Below are positions 1 through 62,969 of a DNA stretch of 64,000 nucleotides, piece by piece. The DNA comes from Squalus acanthias. Lineage: Eukaryota. Position 1 is the first letter of the stretch. Each line of letters starts with the position of its first letter. The stretch lies in the NCBI GenBank assembly GCA_030390025.1, contig JASTWF010000333.1:248001-312000 (forward strand), read 5' to 3'. The notes under the pieces were generated by a model. It did not search any database and was not told where the DNA came from. It saw only the letters and a list, made by a program, of their open reading frames with translations. A program made the translations under genes and the position numbers.

Positions 1-800
1 TGAATGTTGACATAGTTTCTGCCTCAACCACGAACCATAAATAAACTTGAAAGAGAGGGCTATCATAAGATAGTAAATATTCTGAATGATTACTTCCTCT
101 AAGTATTCACAAGGGAAGTTATGAGCAACATGCCCTCCCCAAACAGAGATAACCCAAGCAAAATTAATAACCAATATAAATAAGAGGCAAATCCTAGACA
201 GGCTACGATAGCAAAATACTGCGGATGCTGGAAAATTGAAACAACAACAGAAAACGCTGGAAAAACTCAGTAGGCCAGGCAACATCCGTGGAGAGAGAAA
301 CAGACTAAATGGTCTCAAAAACAACAAATCCCCAGGGATAGATGGTATTTATCCCAGAATACTAAAGGAGACTAAGAAGGAGATTTTTGAAGCACTAACA
401 ATCATTATGAGGGAGTGACTGGACACTGCGGCGCTACCAACAGATTGAAAACAAAAAGGATGACAAAACAGACACGGGCAGAGCCATTAGTTTTACTTTA
501 ATCCTGTGTGAAATAATGGTATTATCAGGTATAAGCTTGAAGATTATCCATATAATAATAATTTAGTAAAGAGTATTCAGCATGGATTCAGAAGGGGAAA
601 ATCTTGTCTGACTAACCTCATTGACTTCCTTGAGGAAGTGACATCCCAAGTGGACTGTTGTAAGCCCCACAACATGTGGTACCTTGACTGCCAAAAGGCA
701 GTTGACAAAATTCCACATGACAAGCTATGAGTTAAACTCAAAGCAGTGGGCATTCAGGATAAATCTTCAGAATAAGAAAATGATGTTGAAGGGTAAAAAA
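1..800 (+). mobile_element. Degraded CR1 LINE ORF2 (RT) fragment
   Basis: KSPGIDGIYPRILKE motif and QHGFRRGKSCLTNL-like remnants; frameshifts and stops. Confidence 0.85.
206..304 (-). mobile_element. Short Penelope-associated element copy, truncated before the hammerhead motif
   Basis: gcaaaatactgcggatgctgg...gagagagaaacaga matches the copies at 23.3 and 61.2 kb; flanked by caggcta/cagacta inside the CR1. Confidence 0.75.
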
Positions 801-6161: not shown

Positions 6162-8317
6162 GTAAGATGTTACCGTCCTCCAGATAGCACTTTTAATAAG
6201 TTTAGCTAGACTGTAACCTTCCGGATATTATGAGGGTCTGGAAAACTCCCCCAGAATTCTGCAACTCATCACCAAAGAGCGTACAGAGATTGAGTTCGCG
6301 AGTTTGATGCAGAAGTATTATGTGAGACAATTCTAAACATATATAGATTTATTAAAGAACCGACATGCAGTTTACAGTAGGTGTTTCAATCGCAACATTA
6401 ACAGTTCCAAATACATAAATCTTACAATTCTATTATCAGAGATCCTTATTCTCAAATCTTAACTTCGCTAGTTTTACAGTTCTTAGTTTATTCCAGGATA
6501 TCCACCAAAATCAAATACAATACCTTGATTCCCCGAGATACAAAGAGTTGAAGACTTACAGAGCTTGCCTCTGAAGCCTGAGAATCGCTTTGCCCCTTAC
6601 AGCGAAACTATCATCCCATTTGAAAGTTCAATTTTTATACCCTTTTGCAGTGGTATTTCCTTTGAAGTTTTCTGCTGATGTAAGTTAATTATCTCTAGTC
6701 AGTTTTCTGCTGACCCCTGCTATTCTTACAGTCAGTTCAGCTGGTAGCATTAAGAATTATGTCTCCTGTGTAGGTGTCTCAAGCTTAACACAAAAACAAT
6801 GTGATGGCTGGTGCATCTATTTGATGTCATTCTTACCAAGGTCTTCCATTTGTATCTTTTGCATTTAGAACACCTCAACCGGGTGCACCATTGTCTTCTT
6901 TCCAATGCTTCAGACTATCAGGAACCTCCAACCTCCTGTTTCAACAAGGCTATTGATTCAGTGTCAACAACTTATCTGATCTCAATAGCCTGAATGCTGT
7001 TCACAGCTTCTCCATTGTTAGGTTTTTAGATTTTCAGACCTAGTATGTCATGTTTTAATAAAGTCAGAAGTCTTTTATAGAATGGTGTATTTTTCTGAAT
7101 ATGGCTTATTCCTTCACAACCAGCGTCCTCAACTTCTTCACCTCAGGCTCCTTCCAGGGATCTGCAGCAGACATTTGTGGCATCTCCCAGTCGGCCGCCC
7201 ACAGATGCATCACATAGGTTACCGATGCCCTCTTTGACAAGTCAGCCAATTATATCAACTTTGTCACTGATGAAGCCAGTGTTGCTGAGTGGGCACTGGG
7301 CTTTGCCACTCTGGCTGGCTTTCCACGGGTGCAGGGCATCATCGACTGCACACATGTGGCCATCAGGGCACCCCATCATAGTCTTTGGAGTCTTTGTCAA
7401 CCGCAAGGGCTTCCACTCCCTCACTATGCAGCTCGTCTGCAACCATAGGAAGATCATCATGCATGTGTGTGCAAAATTCCCTGGCAGCTGTCATGACTCT
7501 TTCGTCCTTCGCCAGTCCACCCTCCCTCAGATCTTCGCTCTGCCAAACAGACTTTCCGGCTTGCTGCTTGGAGACAAGGGCTATCCACTGAAGACGTGGC
7601 TCATGACACCCTTGAGGAGGCCAAGTACTGAGGCCCAGGAGAGATATAATGAAAGCCACATTTCCACCAGATGTGTCATAGAGCAGACAATAGGCATGCT
7701 CAAAGTGCACTTCAGATGCCTTGACAGATCTGAAGGAGCCCTTCAGTATGCTACAGCCAGGGTCTCCAGAATCGTCGTGGTTTGCTGCGCCCTGCACAAC
7801 ATAGCGCAGTAGTGAGGATTAGTGCTGCATGAGGAGCAAGGCACTGAGCGCACAGCCTCTTCAGAGGAGGAGAAGCAGGAGGAGGAGGGGGAGGAGCATC
7901 AGCTGGAAGACAAGGAGGAGCAGGAGCTGGAGGAACCTGCGGTCCAGATCCCACCAGTACCTGAGCACATTGCTGCCTGGGAGGCCAGGGATGGGCTCAT
8001 CACGGCCAGATTTACTTAACTTTACGCATTACACATATATGGCTACCACATGTGGTGCCAGGCTGGCACCACCCCACAGCAACACCATAAAGCATCGCTA
8101 CAATGACCAAGCCATTCCTTTCACACTGACCACCATTGCTGGAATTAAAGTGATGTCTCACCATTCACTCCAACTCACTAAGCCACTTCCAAAGTTGCAC
8201 ACAAATTTGTCCATGACCGTAAAGTGGTGAAAATAAAGATTTTTATCTGTGACATCACAGTAACGGAAACTTTACACAAACATTTAATAAAACACCCAAG
8301 TGGCTACCCTTGTGAAT

Positions 8318-10211: not shown

Positions 10212-10519
10212 ATTTGGCACTCTTTGTAGCAGTCCAATTGTGCAGTGTGCTGCCTGCACTATCCTGGATGAACCTTCAAATGCAATGTGACCGTGGCCCC
10301 TTTAAATATCCCGGCTGAAAACGCGTCATCACTGATGTCATCAGATCCGCACCATTTAATGGGGCCGGGTAACGCACAGGGCAGCCTTAATTGGCCCCAT
10401 TAATAGAAAGTCGATCTCAGGAACGGCATGGAATGAAGAACGGGGTCGTGACCCGCCACAGCGACCGCCCGCACCTGACCCGCCCACTTACAGAAAATTC
10501 CGGCCCATGTCTCAGGTCA

Positions 10520-10586
10520 AGATGCTGCCTGACCTGCTGAGTATTTCCAGCATTTTTTGCTTTTATTTCAGGTTTCCAACATTTGC
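10520..10586 (+). mobile_element. Fragment of the short Penelope-associated element (opposite orientation)
   Basis: agatgctgcctgacctgctgagtatttccagcatttt is the reverse complement of the 23.3-kb copy. Confidence 0.75.
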
Positions 10587-22912: not shown

Positions 22913-23297
22913 TGTTCTTCGTGGGTTGTTACTGGTGATCTTTGGCTACTGCATCTTTGTTATTTAAGTTTGTTTTTATTTTGACTGTTTCTGTTAAGGC
23001 TAAAGTTGCAGTGTTGATCTCATTGTTTTGTTACTTTTCCCAGGATGATTTTATATTGCCAATTTCCCACTGTTCCTGTCTCGGGAGAGCGGCCTTCGTG
23101 TACCCCTCAGTTTTCACTCAGTTGCCAGTCACCCTGGGCTCTGCTGTGCAAATGTAATGTTTAAATTACTAAAGCAAACTTCCTTAACCTGAGCAGTTGG
23201 CCATTTATACTATAGAGTGCAGCAGATGGAGGGATGTATGTACAGCTCCAGTTGGCTGCACTCCTGCAATATGACAGCACCCTGTGTTATATAATAT

Positions 23298-23403
23298 AAA
23301 ATAAAAACAGAAAATGCTGGAAATACTCAGCAGGTCAGGCAGCATCTGTGGAGAGAGAAACAGAGTTAACGTTTCAGGTCGATGACCCTTCGTCAGAACT
23401 GGC
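23298..23403 (-). mobile_element. Short Penelope-associated (retrozyme/SINE-like) element
   Basis: Matches 61168-61274; gttatat flanks both sides. Confidence 0.8.
23364..23400 (-). ncRNA. Putative minimal type I hammerhead ribozyme
   Basis: AGUU-CUGACGA-A-GGGUC auc GACCU-GAAA-CGUU-AACU: conserved core, helix II, 4-bp helix I and palindromic ACGU in place of helix III. Confidence 0.65.
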
Positions 23404-23418
23404 GTTATATGTTATATG

Positions 23419-24282
23419 GGAGGAAAAATTCAGTTGGTTGTGCCTCCCATTAGCACCTTAAGAGGGCCCGGGCGCGGTGATATTTGCGCTGCTCGCGAAA
23501 TTAACTAGACATTTTGCAGCGGCGCTAAACACTATCGCCACGATCTCCTGCGCCGGCAGATCGTGACGTCAGTTGAGTGCGCAACACCCCGGTAGCACCC
23601 TGGAGCGAATATTGAGTGGCGCCCCCTGCCTTACCGCCTGCCGCTAGCAACGACAGGTTGAGGGGAGCGTTTTGCAGTCAGGAAGGGACTGGAGGAGCGC
23701 TATTTAAAGGCGACCGCTTCCTGCCTTTTATTGTTGGTGACATTTTTGAACCACGCATTCTGAGAGAGAGAGAGAGACTTCTGGAGAGATTCAACGCTGT
23801 GTGAAGGAGTTTTGGGTACTGAGCAGCACTTTGCAGGTTCATTTTGATTTGCCATTCCTTGTATCGATTTAGAAGAGACTGTAGGGGCTGCACTCTGAGC
23901 TCTTTCCCTGGTACTCTCCATTGTTCTTTCCAGCAGATTTGATGTACAGGTCTCTCCAGGCTGAGATTCAAGGCTGCAATGAGCAGGATGTGGATGGAAA
24001 GCAAGATCAACCCTTCCCTTTAAGAACTGGCCGGCGCCATTGTGTCTGTGTTCCATTGCTGACTGACATCACATGAGCTGCGCCAGCGCTCTGAGGTAGC
24101 GCCTCGCTCCTCGGCCTTTGCGCCTTAAGACAGATGTGAAGCGCCTGATTTAGCGCTCCAATCACCTCCAGGGGCGATAAAAGTCAAGTTTGCAGTCGGA
24201 GGCGATAATTAGCGCCAGGCGCTAATCTTTGTGCCCGGCCGATGATTGCGCCCCAAATGGGGCGATACTGAATTTTTCCCCC
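23419..24282 (-). mobile_element. Second copy of the Harbinger MITE at 1732-2625, inverted
   Basis: Highly similar reverse complement; TIRs ggaggaaaaattcag / ctgaatttttccccc; TSD ATG. Confidence 0.92.
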
Positions 24283-27919: not shown

Positions 27920-28325
27920 ATATCCAAGTTTGCTGACAACACCAAGTTAGGTGGCACAGTAAATAGTGTAGATGGGAGCAGAAAGTTGCAAAGGGACATT
28001 GATAGGCTAACTGAGTGGCTGCCATCAGCAATAGTCAGATCTGAACCACAAATAGGCAATTGAAGTTCAATGTGGGGAAATGTGTGGCCATCCACTTTGG
28101 ACCTAAGAAAGATAGTTCAGAGCATTTTCTAAATGGTGAGAAGCTAGGAACTGTGGACGAGCAGAGAGATTTAGGGGTTCAAGTACAGAAATCACGAAAA
28201 ACTAGTGGACAGGTACAAAAAATAATTTAAAAGGCTGTTGGCCTTTATCTCAAGGGGGCTGGAATACAAAGGGGTAGAAGTTATGTTACAGTTATATAAA
28301 GGTCTGGTTGGTCCACATCTGGAGT

Positions 28326-28663
28326 ACTGCGTTCAGTTCTGGGGCACTGTGTTCAGTTCTGGAGCACTGTGTTCAGTTCTGGGGCACTGTGTTCAGTTCT
28401 GGAGCACTGTGTTCAGTTCTGGAGCACTGTGTTCAGTTCTGGGGCACTGTGTTCAGTTCTGGGGCACTGTGTTCAGTTCTGGGGCACTGTGTTCAGTTCT
28501 GGAGCACTGTGTTCAGTTCTGGGGCACTGTGTTCAGTTCTGGAGCACTGTGTTCAGTTCTGGAGCACTGTGTTCAGTTCTGGGGCACTGTGTTCAGTTCT
28601 GGAGCACTGTGTTCAGTTCTGGGGCACTGTGTTCAGTTCTGGGGCACTGTGTTCAGTTCTGGG
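28326..28663 (+). repeat. 20-bp minisatellite, about 17 copies of actgtgttcagttctgg(g/a)gc
   Basis: Directly visible; unit is CR1 sequence encoding CVQFW. Confidence 0.97.
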
Positions 28664-29637
28664 TGCCGCACCTCAGGAAGGATATGTTGGCCTTGGAAGG
28701 TGTGCAGCACAGATTCACCAGAATGATACTGGGGCTAAATGGGTTCAAATATGAGGACAGTTTACATAGACTAAGCTTGTATTCCCTTGAGTATAGAAAA
28801 TTAAGGGGGATTTTAATTGAGATGTTTAAGATGATTAAAGGATTTGATGGGGTAGATAGAGAGAAACAATTTCCTCTGGTGGGGGAGTCCAGAACAAGTG
28901 GAAACACCTTCTCTTCAATTGCCCAATAATCCAGACCCTCGCTGTTTTTATAGGGATCTATCTGTCCATTTGCTGGTGGTTCCTGTCATTTCATTGTTTG
29001 CCTGATTTGTGGTTCAGATCTGACTATTGCTGATGGCAGACACTTTGGGTGAATTTCCACCTGCTGTGATACCATGAGGTTTCGATTCTGAGGCAATGAA
29101 TGGGAACAGTGGGGCTGTGGGCAGTGCAACCCCTTCCTGATGTAACTGGCCGCAACTTCATGGTTCCACATGGTGAGGCACAAAAATGAGGCAAGTGGGA
29201 ACACCAGCAAGTGTAGAGATACCTCTTCCCATTGCACAACGATATTGTAATTATACTGTCCAAATATTATTAGTGTGGGAACAAGCACCGCCTTAGTGAA
29301 TAATTCCTTTGTCCAGTTCAGCAGGCGCATTTTATGTTTTTTTTAAATTGTTTTGCCAGAGACTTTTCCTAGCCCGGGATGTTGGGAAAGTGACTTGCTC
29401 CCAGCCCTCAGCCAATATTGCTCTCCGTTGGGCAGTTGTGTTGGGAATCAGAACAGCCCCAGGCACCCTCCCACTCTGACCCTCCCCTCCATCTCTTGCT
29501 TGTGGGGAAGTGTTTATTTTCCGCTTGGCCTGGAACAGAAATATTTCATGAGATTGGAATTGAAGTGGGACAAACTGCACTGTGAATATGAAGGAGGAGT
29601 GACTGTTAGCGCACTGTCTCCCTGCCTCACTGAGAGA

Positions 29638-30825: not shown

Positions 30826-32400
30826 GAAAAAAGAAAGACTTGCATTTATATAGCACCTTTCACGACTACTGGACATCCCAAAGTGCTTTATAGCCAATGA
30901 AGTACTTTTTTGTTGAAGTGTAGTCACTGTTGTAATGTAGGAAATGCGGCAGCCAATTTGCGCACAGCAAGCTCCCACAAACAGCAATGTGATAATGACC
31001 AGATAATCTGTTTTTTGGTGATGTTGGTTGAGGGACGAATATTGGCCAGGACACCAGGGATAACTCCCCTGCTCTTCTTCAATCTTTTAGAATCATAGAA
31101 TGGTTACAGCACAGAAGGAGGCCATTCGGCCTGTCGAGCCCGTGCCAGCTCTCTGCAATAGCACTTCAGCTAGTCCCACTCCCCCGCCCTTTCCCCGTAG
31201 CCCTGCAATTTTTTTCCTTCAGGTACTTATCCAATTCCCTATTGAAAGCCACGATTGAATCTGCCTCCACCACCATCTCAGGCAGTGTATTCCAGATCAT
31301 AACCACTCACTGCGTAAAAAAGTTTTTCCTCATGTCACCTTTGGTTCTTCTGCCAATCACCTTAAATCTGTGTCCTCTGGTTCTCGACCCTTCTGCCAAT
31401 GGGAACAGTTTCTCTCCATCTACTCTGTCCAGACCCCTCATGATTTTGAACACCTCTATCAAATCTTCTCTCAACCTTCACTGCTCTAAGGAGAACAACC
31501 CCAGCTTCTCCAGTTTATCCACATAACTGAAGTCCCTCATCCCTGGAACCATTCTCGTAAATCTTTTCTGCACCCTCACTAAGGCCTTCACATCCTTCCT
31601 AAAGTGCGGTGCCTAGAATTGGACACAATACTCCAGTTGAGGACGGACCAGTGTTTTATAAAGGTTCATCATAACTTCCTTGCTTTTGTACTCTATGCCT
31701 CTATTTATGAGGCCCAGGATCCCGTATGCTTTTTTAACTGTTTTCTCAACCTTCAATGATTTGTGCACATATACCCCCAGGTCTCTCTGTTCATGCACCC
31801 GCTTTAGAATTGTGCCCTTTAGTTTATATTGCCTCTCCTCATTCTTCCTACAAAAATGCATCACTTCGCACTTTTCTGCGTTAAATTTCATCTGCCACGT
31901 GTCCGCCCATTCCACCAGCCTGTCTATGTCTTCTTGAAGTTTATCACTATCCTCCTCACTGTTCACTATACTTCCAAGTTTTGTGTTATCTGCAAATTTT
32001 GAAATTGTGCCCTGTAAACCCAAGTCCAAGTCATTAATATATATCAAGAAATACAGTGATCCTCGTACCGAGCCGTGGGCAACACCACTGTTGACCCGCC
32101 TCCAGTCCGAAAAACAACAGTTCACCACTACTCTCTATTTCCTGACACTTAGCCAATTTCATATCCATGCTGTCACGGTCTCTTTTGTTCCATGGGCTTC
32201 AACTTTTACATCTACCTGAGAGAGAAGATGGGGCCTCGGTTTAACGTCTTATCCGAAAGACAGCACCTCTGACAGTGCAGCACTCCCTCAGTACGGCACT
32301 GGAGTGTCAGCCTAGATTTTTGTGTTTAAGTCTCTGGAGTGGGAACCCACATCCTTCTGACTCAGAGGTACGAGTGCTACCAACTAAGCCACAGTTGACA
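30826..32400 (-). mobile_element. Deu-domain tRNA-derived SINE (SacSINE1/AmnSINE1-like), split by a CR1
   Basis: Minus-strand head with A box TGGCTTAGTTGG near 32385; gggagtgctgcactgtcagaggtgctgtctttcggataagacgttaaaccgaggcccc Deu core; L2-like tail at 30826-30900. Confidence 0.85.
31087..32207 (-). mobile_element. CR1 3' portion inserted in the SINE
   Basis: ORF 31613-32128 with RT motifs; tail at 31087. Confidence 0.93.
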
Positions 32401-40350: not shown

Positions 40351-40779
40351 ATTAAATCTGCTTTTAGGCTTACCATCACTGCATCACTGACGCCAGTCTT
40401 CAGCTAATTCGATTCACTCCATGTGATGTCAAGAAACAGCTGAGTGCACTGGACACAGCAAAGACTATGGCCCCGATGTTCACTGGGACGGGGTTTCGGA
40501 GCGTGGGGAGGAGTTACAGTCAGGAAACCCGGAAGTGCAGATTTTCCCGAGCGTGTAGAGTTTTTTTTAAACAGATTCCCTGCATGGAAGCCAGCCCGAT
40601 TGACGGGCTTGGCTGCCTGTCAGACAGGTAAGTTCTCCAGAAGAGGCTTCAGCGGAGGATCCGGGGGGATTGGGGAGAGCATGGTTGGGGGGGTCAGGAG
40701 TGGGTAGACCGTGGTTGGGGGATCGGGGGTGATCACGGGGCTGGGGGGGGGGTCAGGGAGTGATCATTGGGGAGTCGGG

Positions 40780-41640
40780 GGGAGAGTCGGAGTTCGTGGG
40801 GGGTTTTGGGGAGATTGGGATTTGGTGCTGGGGGTTCGGGGAGAGTCGGAGATCGCGGGGGGGGGTTCGGGGAGAGTCGGAGATCACGGGGGGGGGTTCG
40901 GGGAGAGTCGGAGATCACGGGGGGGTTTGGGGAGAGTCGGAGTTCATGGGGGGGTTCGGGGAGAGTCGGAGTTCATGGGGGGGGTTCGGGGAGAGTCGGA
41001 GTTCATGGGGGGGGTTCGGGGAGAGTCGGAGTTCATGGGGGGTTCGGGGAGAGTCGGAGATCGCGGGGGGGTTCGGGGAGAGTCGGAGTTCATGGGGGGG
41101 GTTCGGGGAGAGTCGGAGTTCATGGGGGGGGTTCGGGGAGAGTCGGAGTTCATGGGGGGGGTTCGGGGAGAGTCTGAGATCACGGGGGGGGTTCGGGGAG
41201 AGTCTGAGATCGCGGGGGGTGTTCAGGGAGAGTCTGAGATCGCGGGGGGTGTTCAGGGAGAGTCTGAGATCGCGGGGGGTGTTCAGGGAGAGTCTGAGAT
41301 CGCGGGGGGTGTTCAGGGAGAGTCTGAGATCGCGGGGGGTGTTCAGGGAGAGTCTGAGATCGCGGGGGGTGTTCAGGGAGAGTCTGAGATCGCGGGGGGG
41401 GTTCGGGGAGAGTCTGAGATCGCGGGGGGTGTTCAGGGAGAGTCTGAGATCGCGGGGGGTGTTCAGGGAGAGTCTGAGATCGCGGGGGGTGTTCAGGGAG
41501 AGTCTGAGATCGCGGGTGGGGGAGGTTCGGGGAGATCGGGGGTTGGTGCTGGGTGTTCGGAGAGAGTCAGAGATCATGGGGGAGGGTTCGGGGAGAGTGT
41601 GAGATAGCTGGGGGGGGGGGTTTTGGGGAGATCGGGGGTT
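40780..41640 (+). repeat. G-rich 30-bp minisatellite within a MITE-like segment starting near 40468
   Basis: gttcggggagagtcggagttcatggggggg and gttcagggagagtctgagatcgcggggggt units. Confidence 0.95.
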
Positions 41641-41649
41641 GGTGCTGGG

Positions 41650-44439
41650 CACAAGAAATTCTATGACCTCAGTCGGGTGGTCAAGGTGAGTACATGCTTC
41701 AACAGCTCCTACGTACCAGCATCTGAACCTCAGTCTGTACACACTGCACAAACCACCACACCGCCACCACTCACCCACCAAACATCTTCAGCTACTCAAA
41801 CTCACATCCACATCTCACACCTTGCCTATAATCACAGCTATTCAACTATGGCAGGCATATCTCCCAAATACATAACTGGACTCTGACTCAAACACATTTG
41901 TTTCTCTTGCAGGCCAAGATGGCTCACAATAGGAGGGAGCAGCAGAGAACAGGCGGGGGTGATGCGCAGCTCCAGCAGGTCTCAGACCTTGAGGAGCGAG
42001 TGCTGCGACTCATTGGGCAGCAGTGTGGCCATTGGCAACGTCGACCCCCTTGGGTGCAACAAATGTATGTTCATCCCCTGTCCTTCTCTCATCCTACTTC
42101 CCCCTCACACCATAAGCCTTTTCCACTTTCCAGCTCCTGATACTGTCTGCATTCCTTGCTCCCTTCCTGCCCCCCTGCCCTCACCTTAACGTGAGTCTTG
42201 TGCCTTCCACCACAGTCCACTGGGGATCTCACGGTGTCGCAGCAGGCCAGCAATCTGTGCTCCAGCAAATTGGTAAGGATGCTGAGGTGCTGCCCCAGCG
42301 GAGTGGGAGTGGGTCAGTGGAGCAGGAACCTGCTGTCCTCTCTCAGGATGACAGCATTCCTGCTCCCACCACTGCCACTCCGCCATTGCCCTTGCCCTTG
42401 TCGTTGCCTGTCATCCAGCCAACCCAGACTGTCGCTGCCCATCCTGAGGTGGTGCAGTGTACAGCCGGGACTTCCAGGCCCAGAGCTGGTCGAGGGCGTC
42501 CTGCAAGGCCATCTGTGGTCTCTGGCACCGACACTCAGCAGCCTTCCACCAGCCCTGCTGCAGCCACTGGGGAGACACTACGTAGGAGCACTAGATTAGG
42601 AAAGGGGATTATAAAGAGGGGAGGCAAGGGTTTGCACAAGAGTGATTAGTCAATATTGTTGCTGTATATATGTGGTTGCTGAATTTGGATAAATTTACTC
42701 TTGGAATGTTGCAGATTTGCGGCTGTGTCTCATTTCAGTTTTGGGGTGTGGTACGGAATGAGAAATTGATGGAATGATGGGGACCTGCTGAGCAACCGGG
42801 AAGTGGCCTCCAATTCATTGGAACCGCAGTCTGATGAGGCAGTCACGGACCGCCCTTCCACAAGGCCGGTTGAGTGGCTGCCTCCTCCGTCACTGATGTT
42901 CGTGCTTCTGTTCCTCCTCCTCCTCTTCCTTGTCTTCGGCCTCGGCCTCCTCGTCTCCCTCTTCCTCTTCCTGAGGTGGTGCGGCTATGCCTGGTGGCAA
43001 TGGCTGCGCCCTCATGATGGCCAAGTTGTGCAGCATGCAGCAGGCCATGACGAAAAGGGACACCTGCTCAGCCGAGTACTGGAGGGCTCCTCCCGAGCGG
43101 TCAAGGCAGCGGAACCATTGCTTGAGCACTCCGATGGTCTGCTCTATGATGTTCCTGGTTGCAGCTTGGCTCTCATTGTATGATTGCTGGGCACGAGTGT
43201 TGGGGTTGCGGAGGGGAGCCATGAGCCAGGTGGGGAGCGGAAAGCCCTTGTCTCCCAGCAGCCAGCCATGAGTTTGATGTGGTGGCTGGAACAGATAGCG
43301 GGCATTGACGGTGAGGATTCGCTGTGTGTGGTCACACACCAACTGCACATTAATTGAGTGGTAGCCTTTGCGGTTACAGAATACCTCAGGATTGTTACGG
43401 GGTGCCCACAAAGCCACGTGATGCAGTCAATGGCGCCCTGCACCATGGGCAAGCCCGCTATCCTGGCAAAGCCACATGCACGCTCGCGCTGCTTCTCTCT
43501 GGCCATGGGAAGGAAATGTAGTCCCTTCTCCTTCTGTACAGAGCACCTGTGACCACACAGATTCAGCGATGGACAGCGAACTACGAGATGTTCGCTATGT
43601 CTCCTGTTGCACACTGGAAGGATCCGCTGGCGTAGAAATTGAGGGCGACGGTGACCTTGGCTGCCACTGAGAGAGCCGTGGTGCTCCTGATGTGAGGCTC
43701 GAGGTCTGGCTGCAGGAGGTGGCAGAGCTCTGTGACCACGTCCTTGGTGAAGCGGAGCCTTCTAACACACTGTTCCTCAGTGAAATTGATGTAGGAGAAA
43801 TGCTGCCGGAATACCCTGGGAGGGTAAGGCCTCCTGTTGAGAGTCCTGTTGGCCCTCCTCCATCTGGCCACATTTTGCAATCTTTCTCTCTACCTCCGCT
43901 GCCTCTGATGGTGACACTGGAGGGCAAGGTCCGGGGCCAGTACAGCCCCCATTGAAGTATGGAAATGTTGCACTTTCAAATCTCAACTAAATGAAAGTGA
44001 ATAATTTTTCTGAACTAGAAGACTCCTTCAACTGAAAAATGCTGAAATCGCTCAAAACACCTGTTTGCCTATGTCAAACTGACAAGGCAGCAGTCTTTTG
44101 CCGCCTAAAAATAAACCGGATATTGACGCCTTATAGCGCTCCTCCAGCGTTCATCAGGTAGCTGCCTCCTCTGCCTGTTGTTGCTTATGGCAGGCGCTCA
44201 GGCAGGGGGCGAGAGTGAATCTCTGAGCCGGGTTGCTACCGGGGCGCTACGCAGCTGGATGATGTCACGATCTCCAGTTGCAGGAGAGCGTGGCGCTAGT
44301 GGGTAGCGCCGCCGCAAACCTCCACTTCAATTTCACGGGCGTTGGTACTATCGCCGCGTCCAGTCGCTAAGCCAGTAGTGCCCCGTTAGCGCCCCCGGAG
44401 GCACTAACGGGAAGCGCAAAGGTACCCAATTTAACCCCC
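41650..44439. mobile_element. Left-truncated Harbinger 4 (Myb remnants +, frameshifted transposase - at about 42810-43952)
   Basis: KKFYDLSRVVK|gtgagt; exon 2 AKMAHNRREQQRTGGG; transposase GDKGFPL, IEQTIG; right end similar to 45882-50101. Confidence 0.88.
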
Positions 44440-48114: not shown

Positions 48115-48426
48115 GAGGTGTGACAAAATGCTGGTCATTTTTTTATTAAAGGTCGAGGTTCATGGTCCAACTTCTGTTTAGTGTTTTGGACATTATCTCC
48201 AGGTTGTGAGAACCAGTTATGTTATTGACTGTTTTTTTGTGTTTATTTCTATGAGTTTGTCATGAGGAATTGACACACACAGAGTTTGTAAAATAAATAA
48301 GTTTCTGTATTCAAAATATACATGGTTGGTGGTTGGAATTATTGGTGCCTTGGCCGGCTTAGGGGTTGCGTGCTGGGTTCATTGATGTTGTTAGCAATGG
48401 CAGAAGCCATTTCCACAGCAGGGGCC

Positions 48427-54010: not shown

Positions 54011-54980
54011 ATGTCTTACTACAGTTATACAGGGCCTTGGTGAGACCACACCTGGGAGTACTGTGTGCAATTTTGGTCTCCTTACCTAAGAAAGGATATA
54101 CTTGCCACAGAGGGACTGCAGCGAAGGTTCACCAGACTGATTCCTGGGATGGCAGGACTGTCGTATGAGGAGAGATTGGGTCGACTAGGCCTGTTTCTGC
54201 TCTATGATTTTGCGCTGTCGTGTATCCCGAAGGCCGCCTTGGAGAACGCTTACCCGCAGATCCGAGGCTGAATGCCCCTGGCTGCTGAAGTGTTCCCCAA
54301 CTGGGAGGCAACCCTCCTGCCTGGCGATTGTTGCACGGTGTCCGTTCATACGTTGTCTCAGTGTCTGCATGGTCTCGCCGATGTACCATGCTCTGGAGCA
54401 TCCTTTACTGCAACGTATCAGGTAGACAACGTTGGCCGAGTCACATGAGTATGTACCGTGTACCTGGTGGGTAGTGTCCTCACGTGTGATGATGGTATCT
54501 GTGTCCATGATTTGGCATGTCTTGCAGAGGTTGCCGTGGCAGGGTTGTGTGGTGTCGTGGTTGCTGTTCTCCTGAAAGATGGGTAATCTGCTGCGAACGA
54601 TGGTACTTTTGAGGTTAGGCGGCTGCTTGAAGGCGAGTAGTGGAGGCGTGGGGATGGCCTTAGCAAGGTGTTCGTCGTCATCGATGACATGTTTATTCAC
54701 TAGAGTTTAGAAGAATGAGAGGGGATCTCATTGAAACGTATAAAATTCTGACAGGGCTAGACAGACTGGATGCAGGGAGGATGTTTCCCCTGGTTGGGGG
54801 GTCTAGAACGAGGGGTCACAGTCTCAGGATAAGGGGTAGGACACTTAGGACTGAGATGAGGAGAAATTTCTTCACTCAGAGGGTGAATCTTTGGAATTCT
54901 CTACCACAGAAGGCTGTGGGGGCCAAGTCACTGAATATATTTAAGAAGGAGATAGATAGATTTCTAGACACAAAAGGCAT
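54011..54980 (+). mobile_element. Tail-less CR1 fragment flanked by a ~50-bp direct duplication
   Basis: QFWSPYLRKDIL and RGDLIETYKIL motifs; duplication at 53963-54010 and 54981-55031. Confidence 0.88.
54197..54689 (-). mobile_element. Penelope-like element fragment (GIY-YIG endonuclease)
   Basis: AFKQPPNLK, CxxxxCKTC, VVYLIRC...WYIGET...RMNGHR; flanked by tgttt. Confidence 0.9.
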
Positions 54981-57374
54981 GTTCTGACTGTTGATGAAGT
55001 AAACATGCAAAGGCCACTGCGTGCGATCACAGTTGCTCCTGGGGATTCTTGAAGAAGGACTCGCAATCCGTGGCATATGAGGTGATCCATTTGGGGATAT
55101 CTTGAACCAACTGAAAGGTCTCTTAGGAAGTCCATGTAGCTTCTGGTGGGCTCCTCTTGATACTTCTCAATCAAGGAGGAAGCCTTGGCAGATCCAATAA
55201 GTGGGAAGACCAACCGCAGTGTTGCACTACAAGACCTAATGACCTCCTCACTCTTTCAATCCAGGTGCAATAACAAGCGCACCAGGTTGGAATAAACCTG
55301 TCGGCAGAAGGAAGATCTGGAACCTCTGATTCCACACTTGCCAAGTTCCCCAAGATGGATCACACTCTGTCTCAAAGAGTGGTTGAATCCTGGTGAGGAT
55401 TTTCTCGACAAAGGGTTGGATGGTGTTTGCTCTCAACTGAATTAATTGCTTAGAGAGGCACACCAGCACCTCAAATATTAGCACCTCCTTCTGGTTCTCC
55501 TTGTTCTCCAACAGACTAATTATTGTGCACATCACTTTCCAAGACCATCTTTAGTCTTGTGATGTGCTCCAATTGTAACATTGCCCAGGCCCCTGACACA
55601 CAGCAATTAGGCAACTGGAGAAGTGCTGCTCAAACATCTTAGCAATCTGTTCACCAGAGTGTCTGTGAGCTGCAGCTGTGAAACCAGTGGAGATTTTAAC
55701 AGCTCTCCAAAGAAGGAAGCCACGGTGACTGTCTGACAGTCTTGGACAGTAAGGATTTGAGCTGCCAGCTGTTTCACAATGCCAGTCAGAATGGGGCCAG
55801 CATATTTCCCAATTGCTCTGGCCAGCAGGACAACCCTCTTGTCGGACTTGCAGAGATCCATCATCTGGTCCCATCCTCCACTTTCCACCATGTCGTTAAG
55901 CACAGCTTTATTATTTGTCAGAGCTAGCAGGTCCTTTAGTGTCTCCACACAGTCCACACTGCTTTCAGATGCTAGAACCTCAACTGAGAATTCGCTCTGC
56001 TGCGATTGACCATCAGGAACAAAACCATTGAGCAGACAAACATTAACACAAAAGTTGAGATGAATGGGCAGGGCACTGAATAACTGCCGGGAATAATGTA
56101 GTCATCGCCTCTGCTGACTCAGGCTTAGTTATCATCTCGTGCAGCCCACAGATGGTAGCCAGGGATTCAAGGGTCGAATACTGTGCCGCATTCTCACTGA
56201 CGGGACAGGTTCTGCTTATTGAAAATGCTAACTGTTTGTTCAGTGTGTCCAGCAGCTCTCCCATTGCACTCATGGCACAGTCCTCGGCCAGTGATCTCCA
56301 TACATCACTGACGTACTTGTCCAAACAGACTGGGTAGGGGAGGAGACAGGACACAACTGTTGCTGCGTTGTGCGAGGCCAGTATGGCGATACTCAGTTGA
56401 ACCAAAAATTTCACCTCCTCATAAGGAACTGACTGCAATTGAACCCACAGCACATCAAGTATCTCCGAGACCTGGTCCCGAAGTTCACTGCCACGTCTTT
56501 TAATGATCGTTTGCATGAGCACAGCGGCTGCACTGCAACAGCTGGGGTGTTGGTCGGACAGTCCATCGAAGACCATGAAGAGCAAGTTGCGCAGCTGATT
56601 ATGGGGCAAACACTTGGAAATGACCTCTGTGATCTGACAGCATGTTTGAAAGAGGACTGAAGTGTCAGGGTTAACTAACTGTTCTCTGACTGCTTTCAGA
56701 ACCTCTAACTGCTCCTTTGCTGATCCAGATTGGTGCCTTCATACGATAACTGATTGGACAGGACTATGTACAAAGTGTCCAGGGCCATCTGTCAAACGGG
56801 AAGCGATGGGACTGCACAGTGCAGCCGTCAGTCGTCCAATCAGAGTCCCAGGGTTACTTCCAGGCACTACATTACTCACATTGAGCTTCTCCACATAAAG
56901 TTTCAAAAGCTCCAAGGTTGTGTCCATGGCTCTCTCTCTCGTTCATGAGCTTTTGTTGAAATGTTCCACTCTTCTACCTGATTGAAAATGACCTCAAGTC
57001 CTTCAGGGGACAGATCCTGAATCAATATTGCTTCAGAAGCTCCTGCAGCCAACTCATGGTTTGGATCGAAAGTGTTGCTGTCTCTTTTATGTTATCATTT
57101 CTGTCTTTGTCATTGTCCAGTTCTGAAGGTACCAAGCTGAAAGTACTGGTCAGGCAGCTTTGAATCAATTGGCAGGAGCTAGCTTGGTTTGATTCAGTGT
57201 GTCGTTGTACGAGATGCGTGCAGGCGTTCTTGGCTAACTGTCGAACAGGGCTCTGCAGCTGCTCTGGTGGCTCAACCTCAATAAGATCCTGCGTGTATAT
57301 CAGCAGCTCACTGTTTCTGATAAAGTTGATGGGAACTCTCTGACGATTTGAATGTAGGGATCTGGCTATCAGAG

Positions 57375-59945
57375 TTTTTTTTTATTAGTTCCTGGAATGT
57401 GGAAGTTGCTGGCAAGGCCAGCATTTATTGCCCATCTCTAATTGCCCTTGAGAAGGTGGTGGTGGTGAGCCGCCTTCTTGAACCGCTGCAGTCTGTGTGG
57501 TGAAGGTACTCCCACAGTGTTGTTAGGGAGGGAGTTCCATGATTTTGACCCAGTGATGATAAAGGAACAGTGATATATTTCCAAGTCAGGATGGTGTGTA
57601 ACTTGGAGGGGAACTTGGAGGTGATGGTGTTCCATGCGCCTGCTGCTTTTGTCCTTCTAGGTGGTAGAGGTCGTGGGTTTGGGAGGTGCTGTCGAAGAAG
57701 CCTTGTCAAGTTCCTGCACTGCATCTTGTAGATAGTACACAATGCAGCCACGGTGCACTGGTGGTGGAGGGAATGAATGTTTAAGTTGGTGGATGGGGTG
57801 CCAATCAAGCGGGCTGCTTTGTCCTGGATGGTGTCGAGCTTCTTGAGTGTTGTTGGAGCTGCAATCATCCAGGCATGGGGAGAGTATGCCATCATAATCC
57901 TGACTTGTGCCTTGTAGATGGTGGAAAAGCTTTGGGGAGTCAGGAGATGAGACACTCGCCGCAGAATACATAGCCTCTGACCTGCTCTTGTAGCCAAGGT
58001 ATTTATGTGGCTGGTCCAGCTAAGTTTCTGGTCAATGGTGACACCCAGGATATTGATGGTGGGGGATTCGGCGATGGTAATGCCGTTGAATGTCAAGGGG
58101 TGGTGGTTAGATTCTCTCTTGTTGGAGATAGTCATTGCCTGGCATGAATGTCACTTGCCACTTATCAGCCCAAGTTTGAATGTCGTCCAGGTTTTGTTGC
58201 ATGTGGGCATGGACTGCTTCATTATTTGAGGAGTTGCGAATGGAACTGAACACTGTGCAATCATCAGCGAACATCCCCACTTCTGACCTTATGATGGAGG
58301 GAAGGTCATTGATGAAGCAGCTGAAAATGGTTGGGCCTAGGACACTGCCCTGAGGAACTCTTGCAGTGATGTCCTGGGGCTGTGATGATTGACCTCCAAC
58401 AACCACAATCATCTTCCTTTGTGCTCGGTATGTCTCCAGCCAGTGAAGAGCTTTCTCCTTGATTCCCATTGCCTTTATGTTAAGGGCAGTCACTCTTACC
58501 TCACCTCTGGAATTCAGCTCTTTTGTACATGTTTGGACCAAGGCTGTAATGAGGTTGGGAGTCAAGTGGTCCTGGCGGAACCCAAACTGAGCATAGGTGA
58601 GCAGGTTATTGGTGAGTAAGTGCCGCTTGATAGCACTTTCAACGACACCTTCCATCACTTTGCTGATCAGTGAAAGCAGACTGATGGGGCGGTAATTGGC
58701 CGGATTGGATTTGTCCTGTTTTTTGTGGACAGGACATACCTGGGCAGTTTTCCACATTGTCGGGTAGATGCCAGTGTTGTAGCTGTACTGTAACAGCTTG
58801 GCTTGAGGCGCAGCTAGTTCTGGAGCACAAATCTTCAGCAAGATAGCCGGGATGTTGTCAGGGCCCTCAGCCTTTGCCATATCCAGTGCACTCAGCCATT
58901 TCTTGATATCACGTGGAGTGAATCGAATTGGCTGAAGACTGGCTTCTGCAATGGTGGGGACCTCAGGAGGAGGCCGAGATGGATCATCCACTCGGCATTT
59001 CTGGCTGAAGATGGTTGCAAACGCTTCAGCCTTGTCTTTTGCACTCGCATGCTGGGCTCCGCCATCATTGAGGATGGGGATGGTCATGGAGCCTTCTCCT
59101 CCTGTTAGTTGTTTAATGGTCCACCACCATTCATGACTGGATGTAGCAGGACTGCAGAGCTTTGAGCTGATCCGTTGGTTGTGGGATCGCTTAGCTCTGT
59201 CTATAGCATGCTTTTTCTGCTGTTTAGCATGCATGTAGTCCTGTGTGCAGCTTCCCCAGGTTGGCACCTTATTTTTAGGTGCACCTGGTGCTGCTCCTGG
59301 CATGCTCTTCTGCACTCTCATTGAACCAGGGTTGGTCCCCTGGCTTGATGGTAATGGTAGAGTGAGAGATATGCTGGACCCTGAGGTTACAGATTGTGGA
59401 GGAATACAATTCTGCTGCTGGCTCACAGCGCCGATTATGGTAGTCACTGCTACCAATACTCTCATGGACAGATGCATCTGCGACAGGTAGATTGGTGAGG
59501 ATGAGGTCAAGTAGGTTTTTCCCTCATGTTGGTTCTCACCACCTGCTGCAGGCCCAGACTGGCAGTTATGTCCTTCAGGACTCAGTCAGCTCGGTCAGTA
59601 GTGGTGCTACTGAGCCACTCTTGGTGATAGACATTGAAGTCCCCCACCCAGAGTACATTCTGTGCCCTTTTTACTCTGTGTTTCTTCCCAGTGGTGTTCA
59701 ATTTGGAGGAGTACTGATTCATCAGCTGAGGGAGGGCGGTAGGTGGTAATCAGCAGGAGGTTTCCTTGCCCGTGTTTGACCTGAAGCCATGAGACTTCAT
59801 GGGGTCCGGAGCAATGTTGAGGACTCCCAGGGCTACTCCCTCCCGACTGTATACCACTGTGCCACTACCTCTAAAGTGTCGGGGTCCTGTCGGTGGGACA
59901 GGACATACCCAGGGATGGTGATGGAGGAGTCTGGGACATTGACTT
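57375..59945 (-). mobile_element. CR1/L2-group LINE (APE plus RT), frameshifted, with deletions
   Basis: GDFNV, NYRPISLLS, VPQGSVLGP, FADD, ILGVTID motifs; poly(A) at 57375. Confidence 0.92.
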
Positions 59946-59949
59946 ATTA

Positions 59950-60277
59950 ATCTTGTTTTTCGTAGCGGTTTGCTACAACTGAGTGGCTTGCTAGGCCATT
60001 TCAGAGGGCAGTTAAGAGTCAACCACATTGCTGTGGGTCTGGAGTCACATTTAGGCCAGACCAGGTAAGGACAGCTGATTTCCTTCTCTAAAGGGCATTA
60101 GTGAACCAGATGGGTTTTTACGACAATCCGATAGTTTCATGGTCACCATTACTGATACTGACTTTTTATTCCAGATTTATTTAATTAACTGAATTTAAAT
60201 TCCCCAGCAGCTGTGGTGGGATTTGAACTCACGTCTCTGGATCATTAGTCCAGTAACATAACCACTATGCTACCGTA
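59950..60277 (-). mobile_element. tRNA-derived Pol III head and body directly upstream of the LINE
   Basis: A box TAGCATAGTGG (60272-60262), B box GTTCAAATCC (60228-60219); no tail of its own. Confidence 0.8.
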
Positions 60278-61167
60278 CAACAGTTTCTTTTTCCCAGGAT
60301 GTGCTGAACAATTACAGATTATTATTAAAGCCTTGGTGTACTGGTCATAGTGACAAACTCCAGTAAGAATGGCCAAAGGACATTCTCCATCTTCACTGCA
60401 GTTGTGATCATACGCATCACTATTTCGCACACTGTGACCAAGTCTTCATCTGTTACCTGGTCTGGTTGATGATTGGGTTGTACCAGGGTCCCTGAATCAA
60501 CGGATGCAGCACACTGTTGGATGATGAATTCCACCATTGCCTTTCCTCCCTCTGGCTCAAGGTAACCTTGCTGGGCCATGACACATATTACCTGGGCAAT
60601 GAGCTTCTTCTCCTAATTGCTGCTCTTGTCCAGGAGCACTGATTTTATGGCAGCCACAATCTGAGCCTCCTTCCTCTCAACGTGCGAGGCGACTAATATG
60701 ATGAGGTGCCTCACTACACTGAGTGTTCCTACTCTCATTAGTTGCTCTTTATTCTCTCACTGCTGTTGGAGAAATTCGAGCACTGAGTCTGCATAAGCTG
60801 GGGCCAGAACTCCGAAACAGCAAATGATCTTATTGCGTTTCTTCACAGCAAGATGGTTATTAGACGCCACCGAAACACAAATCTGCTGGTGGAGACTTTT
60901 AAGCAGATTGTCCATCTGTGTTTTCAGCCCCAGATACCTCATCTCTATGGCAACATCCAGTACCCAGCACAGACACTCTGTGATGGAAAAATGCCCTGGT
61001 TGTTTCTTGTAGAGAGACAGGATGCCTGGAACTAACCTGGGCAGCTCTTCCTCCAGTGTGTCCTGGGGCAGCAGGGAGATGACATAGCCTAAAGCTTCCA
61101 CTACTGGGATCTTCACTTCAGAGGACTCCTTCTTGAGCCACACCTTGAACAACAGACTATAGATAGT

Positions 61168-61274
61168 ACAAAAGCAAAATACTAAGGATGCTGGAAATAC
61201 TCAGCAGGTCAGGCAGCATCTGTGGAGAGAGAAACAGAGTTAACGTTTCAGGTCGATGACCCTTCGTCAGAACT
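61168..61274 (-). mobile_element. Short Penelope-associated element inserted in the retrocopy
   Basis: TSD actatagatagt (61156-61167, 61272-61283; 3 nt overlap with the element end). Confidence 0.88.
61238..61274 (-). ncRNA. Putative minimal hammerhead ribozyme, identical to 23364-23400
   Basis: agttctgacgaagggtcatcgacctgaaacgttaact on the minus strand. Confidence 0.65.
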
Positions 61275-62969
61275 ATAGATAGTGTTCATCTCGGTGGAGA
61301 AAGACTCTTTGGTCACTAAGGTCTGAGGCTTTCTCCACATTTCCCAGATAGATTAGGATGCTGTTACTTAAACTTTCCAATGCTGAAGCTAATGCAGACT
61401 TCAGCTCAGTCTGTTTAACTCCAATGAGAACTGGAATCATGGTCCCAAAGATAGATTTTAGTAAAGTCACCATGCCATACACATTTTCTGTTGACATTTT
61501 TGTTAAGGTCTTCACCATGTTACACATGCGGAAGGTGCTCTAGTTTGAAATCCTTTGTTGTCAACCGGACAACTTCATTTCTGAACCTGAAGATTGCTGG
61601 CAGCTTCCTGGCTGTCAGCTGATGCTCCTGTTAACATTGTCATCCACAGTGCAGCCAAAGAGATAACTTTATCAGCTAGTGCTTGGTTAATTTGATCAAG
61701 GGTGTCCTTGATAATCATCGCTATGCTCTCCAATACTACAGCCCCCTGTGGAGCGGTCCACATGGTGAGGTGGGGCAGACGGTCATGGCAGCTCATTCAC
61801 ACTATTTCTGGGTGCTGACGCCCCAGTGTCTGGAGGGTCTTTCTGCTGACAACTTTCATCTCCCTCAGCAATCTTCTATGCGTGAGGGCAACTGAGAATG
61901 ATTCCATGTTGAGGTACATTCTAGAAGTCCACTGGAAGTTTAGAATTGTTCACTTCAATATTAGACATTGCTACTGCCCTCACACTAAGCTGTCTGGACA
62001 CACTCTCAGCAACTCTGTCCTGTTCTTTACTCGAAATTCTACTACTCTTCACTCTGAAGACATGTTTTAACCAAATGATTTCTGTGAGTAATGATCAATT
62101 AAAGACTGTCTTCATTCACTCACTCAATGTTTGAACAGTGTTTCTAATCTGCTCTTCGATGATCTTCCAAAATTTGGATAGATTTGATGAACACACTTGT
62201 CTTTAAGCTCTCCCCTCATTGCTCTCTCATGCACAAATGCACAGTTTGTACCACTTTGCTGTATGTTGTCCACACCTCCGGTTTCTGTGTTGTCATGGTT
62301 TTCATTGTGAGGCCAGGTTACATAGCCCCTCTGTTGTGATGTGCCCTGGGTCATGTGCCCATTTAAGTCCTGCCAGCTGTTTGTGGCAGTTTAAGGTGGA
62401 TGGTGCGGGTTAAGGCCCAGACCTGAGATACAGACCATGCGGGAAAGACAACCCTTGGCAGCCATATTGGATCAAGCAGCTGTTTGTTCCTAATAAAGAA
62501 CCTACCGCACCACAGACTCTCAAAGTACTTGTGACAAAAGATGTAGAGATGTAGAAAAGATGTAGGGCAGACATTTCTAGCAGAATTGCCCCCAAATTGA
62601 GATGTTCATGTGACTCAAATCAATTTTAAATACACTAGAAATAAAAAGATCTGAACTCATGAGATCATTCCGGGGTTAGAATGGGAAAGCATAATTTCCA
62701 GCCCAGTAGGATAGTCTCAACTAATATGGATCGGGTTAGATACCATTTGCATTTGACTAGAAAGGATGATTTTATAATTCCGGAGTAAACACAGTTGTGG
62801 GTTTGTACGTTCATCACCGTCTAAACAAATGATTCCACTGTTTTTATTTGTGTGTTGACATGAAGTAAATTCCAAAGGGATTGAAACTGCTTCATGATGT
62901 AATGAGAAAGATGTTGTGACATCAGAGCGGTCCGTTGTGACATCAGAGTGGCTGTTCCACACTTCTCTC

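What the first reader, a model, noticed from the sequence alone, without database searches (positions are those of the whole stretch)
23298..23403. ~100-bp mobile element carrying a minimal hammerhead ribozyme (four copies in the window)
Seen: 37 nt identical at 23364-23400 and 61238-61274 that read, on the minus strand, AGUU-CUGACGA-A-GGGUC(auc)GACCU-GAAA-CGUU-AACU. Further element fragments lie at 206-304 and 10520-10586, and the 61-kb copy has a clear TSD. Established: CUGANGA...GAAA is the hammerhead core, and Penelope-like element repeats carry minimal hammerheads whose helix III is replaced by a short palindrome, proposed to cleave as dimers. Inference: this is a non-autonomous, ribozyme-bearing retroelement mobilised by Penelope machinery (a GIY-YIG fragment is at 54.2 kb), with predicted cleavage at GUU^AACU. 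It has no tRNA head, so it is not a standard SINE.
Basis: partly seen in the sequence, partly recalled or inferred. Interest (0 to 1): 0.72.

Follow-up and report, generated by a model that had tools for sequence, protein, structure and literature searches.

The report
Penelope-type minimal hammerhead in shark repeat
The motif is a real, intact copy of the small self-cutting RNA that Penelope-like jumping genes carry at their ends, here in a short leftover of a very abundant shark repeat; the kind is already described, and this lone copy is probably inactive.

Summary
The motif is real. Two copies (23314-23400, 61188-61274) are identical over 87 nt, and their minus strand fits the published minimal hammerhead of Penelope-like elements (PLEs): CUGANGA, one extra base, helix II, GAAA, palindromic ACGU, 4-bp helix I. 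A descriptor found only these two in the window; 2 of 200 shuffles gave any hit. The other two copies lack the core, so 'four copies with a hammerhead' is wrong. The 61-kb copy is a true insertion with a 12-bp duplication, shown by empty-site contigs and by MROH1 homologues. Public shark data lay 46,000-56,000 contigs per DNA run on this stretch; hundreds run on past the ribozyme, and inverted joints and an optional ~35-nt tail occur, all PLE traits. Best reading: 5'-truncated 3' ends of a PLE, not a separate 100-bp family. No PLE coding sequence was seen joined to it, and cleavage is untested. A side result: a splice-acceptor signal follows the cleavage site, and a catshark dymeclin isoform model switches to repeat sequence exactly there. 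The scan has noted this kind of repeat before, in this and other shark genomes. New member of a known kind.

The parts
23299..23402 (-). Repeat copy 1: hammerhead plus downstream body, without the outer tail; 2 bases (23401-23402) match the upstream continuation seen in other copies
23364..23400 (-). Minimal type I hammerhead: helix I 5' arm 23400-23397, core C3-A9 23396-23390, unpaired A 23389, helix II 23388-23376 (5 bp, 3-nt loop), GAAA 23375-23372, palindromic ACGU 23372-23369, U17 23368, predicted cut 23368/23367, helix I 3' arm 23367-23364
   Evidence: compared with the consensus in PMC4209133
23343..23369 (-). Splice-acceptor-like signal: branch-point-like UUAAC at 23369-23365 overlapping the cut site, 15 of 17 pyrimidines, CAG ending at 23346, ATG at 23345-23343
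   Evidence: 8 of 4250 YAG sites in the window meet the same criteria
23285..23292 (.). Possible, not clean, target duplication of copy 1: an 8-mer repeated at 23410-23417 (7 bases also at 23404-23410), with 6 extra AT-rich bases before the element
61168..61271 (-). Repeat copy 2: 104-bp insert (the last 3 bases of helix I are shared with the right duplication, to 61274). Intact hammerhead 61238-61274, cut 61242/61241; has the outer tail but lacks a 29-nt inner piece between two short direct repeats
61156..61167 (.). Left target-site duplication (12 bp; codons TIYS of the MROH1-like pseudogene)
61272..61283 (.). Right target-site duplication (12 bp)
204..304 (-). Repeat copy 3: older, full downstream body including the ~35-nt outer tail; no hammerhead core (ends about 3 nt short of the cut site)
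10520..10583 (+). Repeat copy 4: downstream body only (first 34 nt identical to copy 2) with part of the tail; no core
10508..10520 (-). Inverted 13-nt piece of the hammerhead region (10 of 13 match 61244-61256) joined to copy 4; same junction as the 61220/61256 opposite-strand joint in public contigs
54194..54694 (-). Internal fragment of a Penelope-like ORF (Cys-rich linker and GIY-YIG region) inside a CR1-like fragment; no terminal repeat; link to the hammerhead repeat not shown
54799..61919 (-). Intronless, broken MROH1-like pseudogene into whose coding sequence copy 2 inserted, in the gene's sense

Best explanation
The repeat is the 3' end (pseudo-LTR with its minimal hammerhead and tail) of a shark Penelope-like retroelement family. 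Steps: (1) PLE RNA is transcribed through the terminal repeat (inferred from PMC2377424). (2) The element's RT and GIY-YIG endonuclease nick AT-rich DNA and start reverse transcription at one of two points about 35 nt apart, giving copies with or without the tail (shown for an anole PLE in PMC11167929; here inferred from 4 copies with different 3' ends). (3) Synthesis mostly stops early, leaving 65-105-bp stubs with a target duplication (insertion and 12-bp duplication shown for copy 2; variable 5' ends shown); sometimes an inverted piece is joined on (shown). (4) The template was not cut at this ribozyme, because copies 1 and 2 keep the core upstream of the cut site (shown by the sequence). 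(5) The ribozyme has no helix III and would cut only as a dimer through the ACGU palindrome, or with protein help, in tandem elements (literature; untested). A lone copy such as these is most likely inert.
For: Every position of the published min-HHR consensus is met except C11.1, which is U here; 2 of 200 shuffles give any hit. Empty site: joint 61155->61272 skipping 116 bp in 3 contigs of X4 (12 shared letters) and 2 of X1 (8). Both flanks align to the same four residues, 207-210, of P0105. Records laid: 45,979 (X1), 55,671 (X4), 2,709 (X17), 12 (X21), with depth about 10,000-fold above the flanks inside the element in X1 and X4. Shared upstream continuation beyond 61274 in 751, 991 and 74 contigs. 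Recurrent opposite-strand joints at 61219-61221/61253-61256 (7 listed rows, 1-13 contigs per run) and the same junction in copy 4. A few head-to-tail joints. Copy 1 ends about 35 nt before copy 3. Strong 5' truncation, inverted truncated copies and a 30-40-bp tail are listed as PLE traits in PMC8557442. PLE proteins exist in sharks and in this window.
Against: No PLE ORF was seen joined to this repeat: no genome is held, the window has no longer copy, and loose ends show at most 30 letters with agreement only 0.34-0.51. Both intact copies end within 2 nt of the outer edge of helix I, which looks less random than plain truncation. Rfam has no hit. Position 11.1 is U, not the conserved C. In ViennaRNA the monomer prefers a fold that pairs the core with the palindrome (-9.1 vs -6.0 kcal/mol; probabilities 0.26 vs 0.002), though the program does not score the tertiary core. 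Preferential conservation of the core was not measured: one search showed 40 of 213 variant rows, only 2 inside the element.
Confidence: 0.78

Rival explanations
1. One reading: a self-standing non-autonomous element of about 100-140 bp (SINE-like, or a monomeric non-LTR retrozyme) with its own 5' end at helix I, moved in trans by PLE proteins.
For: Both intact copies end at the helix I edge. The very high copy number and 87-nt identity between two copies point to efficient amplification. A few head-to-tail joints exist, including one RNA-run contig going back 75 nt. Retrozyme monomers derived from PLE ends are described, also in one cartilaginous fish (bioRxiv 10.64898/2026.07.22.740005).
Against: Hundreds of contigs continue upstream with a shared sequence. 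The four window copies have different 5' ends. No promoter head was found. One search found no place where many molecules begin or end, though contigs cannot show this well. The window has no tandem array of the unit.
Confidence: 0.15
2. The hammerhead-like sequence is kept for a role other than cutting (protein binding, an RT stop, or part of a splice signal), or it is a decayed relic with no activity in any context.
For: In the anole PLE, ribozyme mutants did not affect insertion, uncut RNA was the main template, and no RNA-seq reads ended at the cut site (PMC11167929). Min-HHRs cut poorly even as dimers (PMC4209133); 8 of 9 Xenopus retrozyme dimers did not cut. A competing fold is favoured here.
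Against: The core is intact at every catalytic position. The anole ribozyme does cut when its protein is present. A divergent loose-end consensus in X4 and X17 reads AUAU instead of ACGU and so keeps a palindrome, although X1's reads ACAU and CpG decay could give either.
Confidence: 0.15
3. The motif has been taken over by the host as a regulatory ribozyme at 23.3 kb or 61.2 kb.
For: Copy 2 lies in the sense of an MROH1-like sequence.
Against: That gene is broken by stops, frameshifts and other insertions, and copy 2 itself interrupts its coding frame. The copies are two among tens of thousands of near-identical contigs. Related MROH1-like loci lack the insert.
Confidence: 0.03

Closest known systems
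Minimal hammerheads (min-HHR) in the pLTRs of metazoan Penelope-like elements (Cervera and De la Pena 2014, PMC4209133)
   Same: Type I; CUGANGA plus one unpaired base; GAAA followed by C-G-U-H with palindromic 15.1-16.1; short helix I (4 bp); U-rich 5' and AU-rich 3' context; mostly found as single motifs. The Ixodes, Nasonia and Xenopus(2) rows of their Fig. S3 have the same layout.
   Different: G10.1 pairs with U rather than C (U11.1 also appears in a few of their rows, e.g. cichlid, Petromyzon, Xenopus(1)). Helix II is 5 bp. No shark row appears in the part of the alignment I read, and 'shark', 'skate', 'Callorhinchus' and 'Leucoraja' have no hit in the searched supplement (file 1 not searched).
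PAc, Poseidon-clade PLE of Anolis carolinensis (Frangieh et al. 2024, PMC11167929)
   Same: Hammerhead near the 3' end of genomic copies; optional 30-40-bp tail; AT-rich targets; uncut RNA used as template.
   Different: In PAc the ORF starts at stem II and the tail lies 111-118 nt into the ORF. Here no RT-bearing protein starting with the repeat's translation was found among 7 hits, and the clade of the parent element is unknown.
Non-LTR retrozymes of animals (Cervera and De la Pena 2020, PMC7229834; Li et al. 2026, bioRxiv 10.64898/2026.07.22.740005)
   Same: Non-coding, type I hammerhead, related to PLE ends, monomers scattered through the genome, reported in one cartilaginous fish.
   Different: Retrozymes are defined by tandem units of about 150-400 bp, mostly with canonical hammerheads. 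The window copies are solitary, minimal and variably truncated; tandem joints were rare.
Penelope of Drosophila virilis, 5'-UTR intron in the pLTR (Schostak et al. 2008, PMC2377424; Cervera 2014)
   Same: A splice acceptor next to the hammerhead in the terminal repeat.
   Different: In D. virilis the intron ends at the 5' arm of helix I, so the ribozyme survives splicing. Here the acceptor-like signal lies about 20 nt downstream of the cut site, so the whole ribozyme would be intronic and the cut would fall inside the branch-point motif. Splicing within the element's own RNA is not shown.

Membership tests
PLE minimal hammerhead (min-HHR) | Core CUGANGA ... GAAA ... UH intact | tested here: met
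   copies 1 and 2 only
PLE minimal hammerhead (min-HHR) | One unpaired base between positions 9 and 10.1 | tested here: met
   A at 23389 and 61263
PLE minimal hammerhead (min-HHR) | Palindromic 15.2-16.2 in place of helix III | tested here: met
   ACGU within a self-complementary 6-mer, duplex -3.5 kcal/mol
PLE minimal hammerhead (min-HHR) | Short helix I (4-5 bp) and a helix II | tested here: met
   4 bp and 5 bp
PLE minimal hammerhead (min-HHR) | G10.1-C11.1 pair (highly conserved, not invariant) | tested here: inconclusive
   G-U wobble here; U11.1 also occurs in a few published rows
PLE minimal hammerhead (min-HHR) | Self-cleavage as a dimer or with protein help | not testable with these tools
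   needs a bench assay; Logan contigs cannot show RNA ends
PLE minimal hammerhead (min-HHR) | Core conserved and stems covarying across copies | tested here: inconclusive
   one search listed 40 of 213 variant rows, 2 inside the element; loose-end consensuses show altered helix II and ACAU or AUAU in place of ACGU
Penelope-like element 3' end (pLTR) | Joined upstream to an RT + GIY-YIG ORF in full-length copies | not testable with these tools
   no genome; no longer copy in the window; collection scans gave nothing or chance hits
Penelope-like element 3' end (pLTR) | Variable 5' truncation of a longer unit | tested here: met
   shared continuation beyond 61274 in 751, 991 and 74 contigs; four different 5' ends in the window
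Penelope-like element 3' end (pLTR) | Inverted 5'-truncated piece joined to some copies | tested here: met
   opposite-strand joints; copy 4
Penelope-like element 3' end (pLTR) | Optional 30-40-bp tail at the 3' end | tested here: inconclusive
   copy 1 ends ~35 nt before copy 3; copy 2 has the tail, copy 4 part of it; only 4 copies, and depth over the tail is biased by copy 2's deletion
Non-LTR retrozyme | Tandem units, each with a hammerhead | tested here: not met
   solitary copies in the window; only a few go-back joints
Non-LTR retrozyme | Expressed as circular RNA | not testable with these tools
   one go-back contig in a guessed RNA run cannot tell a circle from tandem DNA
tRNA-derived SINE | tRNA-like head with a polymerase III promoter | tested here: not met

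The most novel reading that the evidence does not exclude
In this shark PLE family the hammerhead's cut site lies inside the branch-point motif of a working 3' splice site (branch-point-like UUAAC, 15 of 17 pyrimidines, CAG, then ATG). Self-cleavage and splicing would exclude each other on one RNA, making a switch between the spliced mRNA and the uncut, intron-retaining template for transposition. As a by-product, sense-oriented intronic copies would give shark genes alternative last exons on a genome-wide scale. Support so far: the motif itself (8 of 4250 YAG sites in the window match as well) and a catshark dymeclin isoform model that leaves its sibling exactly at that ATG; one carboxylesterase model switches one codon later, and one CEP20 model reads through it. 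Occasional host use of the acceptor I put at about 0.6; a selected switch in the element's life cycle is the bolder claim scored here.
Probability: 0.15. Interest if true: 0.65.

Novelty: new member of a known kind. Interest (0 to 1): 0.22.

Why it matters
As an RNA motif it is ordinary: minimal hammerheads at PLE ends were described in 2014 across animals. My searches found no paper that describes this shark family, so it extends the known range, and its copy number makes it a convenient set for measuring selection on the core. The function of PLE hammerheads is still open (PMC8557442, PMC11167929). If the overlap of cut site and branch point is real, this family offers a direct test: whether self-cleavage competes with splicing of the element's RNA.

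Tried and rejected
Rfam scan of the window at E<=10: no hammerhead family matched; min-HHRs lack helix III, so I do not count this as refutation. Folding z-scores were not significant. No whole genome is held, so no genome-wide alignment was made. DNA pattern scans: metagenome 0 hits, viral 0, metagenome 2 and genome 2; these four match over only 22-25 nt and were rejected as chance. A viral-contig scan with a shark PLE protein gave 32 pattern hits, none confirmed. X21 gave only 12 reads, and its 3-read consensus is not used as evidence. Depth falls about 30-45% between bins 61226-61244 and 61245-61263; I rejected this as evidence for cleaved templates because contig edges and divergent helix II variants would also lower it. 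One X4 contig runs from 61247 into the right flank, which hints that organism B shares the insertion, but only 25 letters lie inside the element, so it is not counted. The inversion joints were considered as splice products and rejected: they fall at 61253-61256, not at the donor-like site 61251/61252, and a 4-base microhomology explains them. The 54.2-kb fragment as the mobilising partner could be neither shown nor excluded. Lunse et al. (PMC5785218) is not held; I saw only its title in a reference list.

Full report
1. Observation. On the minus strand they read helix I arm AGUU, core CUGACGA, one unpaired A, a 5-bp helix II with a 3-nt loop, GAAA, CG, UU, and the other helix I arm. The predicted cut is between 61242 and 61241, and between 23368 and 23367. 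A descriptor for this layout found only these 2 sites in the window; 200 dinucleotide shuffles gave a mean of 0.01 hits and 2 of 200 had any. Rfam shows no hammerhead even at E<=10, and the folding z-scores are unremarkable. The two other copies (204-304 and 10520-10583) share the downstream body but have no core. So 2 of 4 copies carry the ribozyme.

2. Host and setting. The best protein matches are from sharks and rays, so the host is a cartilaginous fish; no whole genome is held. Copy 2 lies in an intronless, broken MROH1-like pseudogene on the minus strand (54799-61919). The flank upstream of the insert ends in TIYS and the flank downstream begins with TIYS; both align to residues 207-210 of P0105, which has these residues once. 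The DNA duplication is exact over 12 bp. Public contigs show the empty site: a joint skipping 116 bp in 3 contigs of X4 and 2 of X1; these may be paralogous MROH1-like loci. Copy 1 has only an imperfect candidate duplication in AT-rich DNA.

3. The family. Of 22 runs listed, 4 were laid on 60960-61500 at 80% likeness. Records laid: 45,979 (X1), 55,671 (X4), 2,709 (X17, guessed RNA), 12 (X21). Depth in X1 and X4 is about 10,000-fold higher inside the element than in the flanks; the tool warns that this is no copy number, but the family is clearly very abundant. Beyond 61274, 751, 991 and 74 contigs continue with a shared sequence, whose first 2 bases copy 1 also carries; agreement over 30 letters is only 0.41-0.51, so many stop soon after. 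Before 61188, 1515, 1796 and 169 contigs carry an inner piece that copy 2 lacks; against copy 3, copy 2 has a 29-nt deletion between two short direct repeats, and copy 1 ends about 35 nt early. Opposite-strand joints recur at 61219-61221/61253-61256, and copy 4 in the window has that same junction: a 13-nt inverted piece (10 of 13 matching) joined to the body. A few head-to-tail joints are listed. The tool showed only part of its tables (40 of 213 variant rows, 15 of 40 joints, 21 of 514 loose-end rows), so I could not measure core conservation or the share of copies ending at helix I. Peptides translated from the body occur in gene models of Heterodontus and Scyliorhinus, so the family is widespread in sharks.

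4. The GIY-YIG fragment. 54194-54694(-) is 92% identical to a Heptranchias protein and 81% over 102 aa to a Pfam GIY-YIG hit. It is an internal piece, stops about 25 residues before the C-terminus seen in P0003, sits inside a CR1-like fragment and has no terminal repeat. It shows that PLE sequence is in this genome, not that this family moved the hammerhead repeat.

5. Mechanism. The anatomy matches what PMC8557442 (passages) lists for PLE insertions: strong 5' truncation, an inverted truncated copy, and a 30-40-bp tail. PMC11167929 (parts 1-2 of 4 and passages) explains the tail by two RT start sites, and found AT-rich targets, protein-assisted ribozyme cutting and uncut RNA as the main template. 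I therefore read these copies as short 3' stubs of a PLE. Copies 1 and 2 keep the core upstream of the cut site, so their template had not been cut there. PMC4209133 (parts 1-2 of 4; supplement file 2 part 2 of 3) defines the min-HHR, reports no cutting as a monomer and weak cutting as dimers, and notes that most motifs are single and probably from truncated PLEs. A lone copy is therefore expected to be inert; ViennaRNA also favours a fold that pairs the core with the palindrome (probability 0.26 vs 0.002), with the caveat that it does not score the tertiary core. Against my reading: no ORF join was seen, both intact copies end at the helix I edge, and retrozyme monomers derived from PLE ends exist (bioRxiv 10.64898/2026.07.22.740005, parts 1-3 of 5; PMC7229834, passages). 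I give 0.78 to truncated PLE ends and 0.15 to a separate non-autonomous family; the two are not fully exclusive.

6. A side result. Downstream of the cut site the sense strand reads as a 3' splice site: a branch-point-like UUAAC that contains the cut, 15 of 17 pyrimidines, CAG, then ATG; 8 of 4250 YAG sites in the window meet the same test. The branch-point consensus and spacing are recalled, not from a call. A profile of the repeat's translation found 7 proteins at E<=10 among 128 candidates. Catshark dymeclin isoform X2 shares 621 residues with isoform X1 and switches to repeat sequence exactly at that methionine. A Heterodontus carboxylesterase isoform switches one codon later. A Heterodontus CEP20 isoform reads through the site as a first exon, which does not support splicing there. 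Four (GOSR2, a PIKfyve-like model, a hypothetical protein, a Logan ORF) have no sibling isoform to compare; for GOSR2 the switch is in the same register, at what I recall as an exon boundary. These are gene models from other species, not reads, and any abundant pyrimidine-rich repeat will be exonised now and then. PLE introns beside the hammerhead are known (PMC4209133; PMC2377424, abstract and Discussion), but there the intron ends before the ribozyme. Searches for this overlap returned only general reviews (listings seen).

7. What is known. The kind is published. Searches for a shark-specific description gave nothing relevant (listings, plus passages of PMC6155905, and PMC6765202). Lunse et al. 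on dimer cleavage was not available. Earlier notes of this scan describe hammerhead-bearing PLE ends in this genome and in other sharks, including an intact element with two such repeats; a look-up by sequence found nothing, so I do not know whether they concern this exact family, and I did not use them as support.

8. Verdict. Observation partly confirmed; interpretation partly supported; new member of a known kind; interest 0.22.

Noticed in passing
window 53957-54010 and 54975-55031: A direct repeat of about 55 bp (37 bp exact, one 3-bp gap) flanks a CR1-like 3' fragment that itself holds the Penelope ORF piece. This is unusually long for a target duplication.
   Followed up: partly
window 54799-61919 (-): An intronless MROH1-like pseudogene (about 57-64% identity to shark MROH1-family proteins) broken by a LINE with an RT domain, a tRNA-headed repeat at 60215-60273, the CR1/PLE piece and copy 2. 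Flank depth and variant contigs suggest several related loci.
   Followed up: partly
window 61156-61167: The 12-bp target of copy 2 is nearly palindromic (5-bp arms around 2 bases).
   Followed up: no
window 1753-2552 and 23463-24262: An 800-bp repeat at 94% identity in opposite orientations, with shorter relatives at 44.2, 45.9 and 49.8 kb; one end lies 60 bp from copy 1. A DDE_Tnp_4 transposase fragment lies at 7099-7812.
   Followed up: no
window 34617-about 37000, 40700-41650, 28230-28740, 52990-53560: Tandem arrays with periods of 37, 30, 20 and 45-51 bp.
   Followed up: no
window 61230-61260 (loose ends): A second subfamily diverges at 61230 (289, 282 and 33 contigs) with a different helix II and ACAU or AUAU in place of ACGU.
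   Followed up: no
window 30933-31007: A 25-residue match to the N-terminus of the Heptranchias model P0002 (80%), not examined.
   Followed up: no
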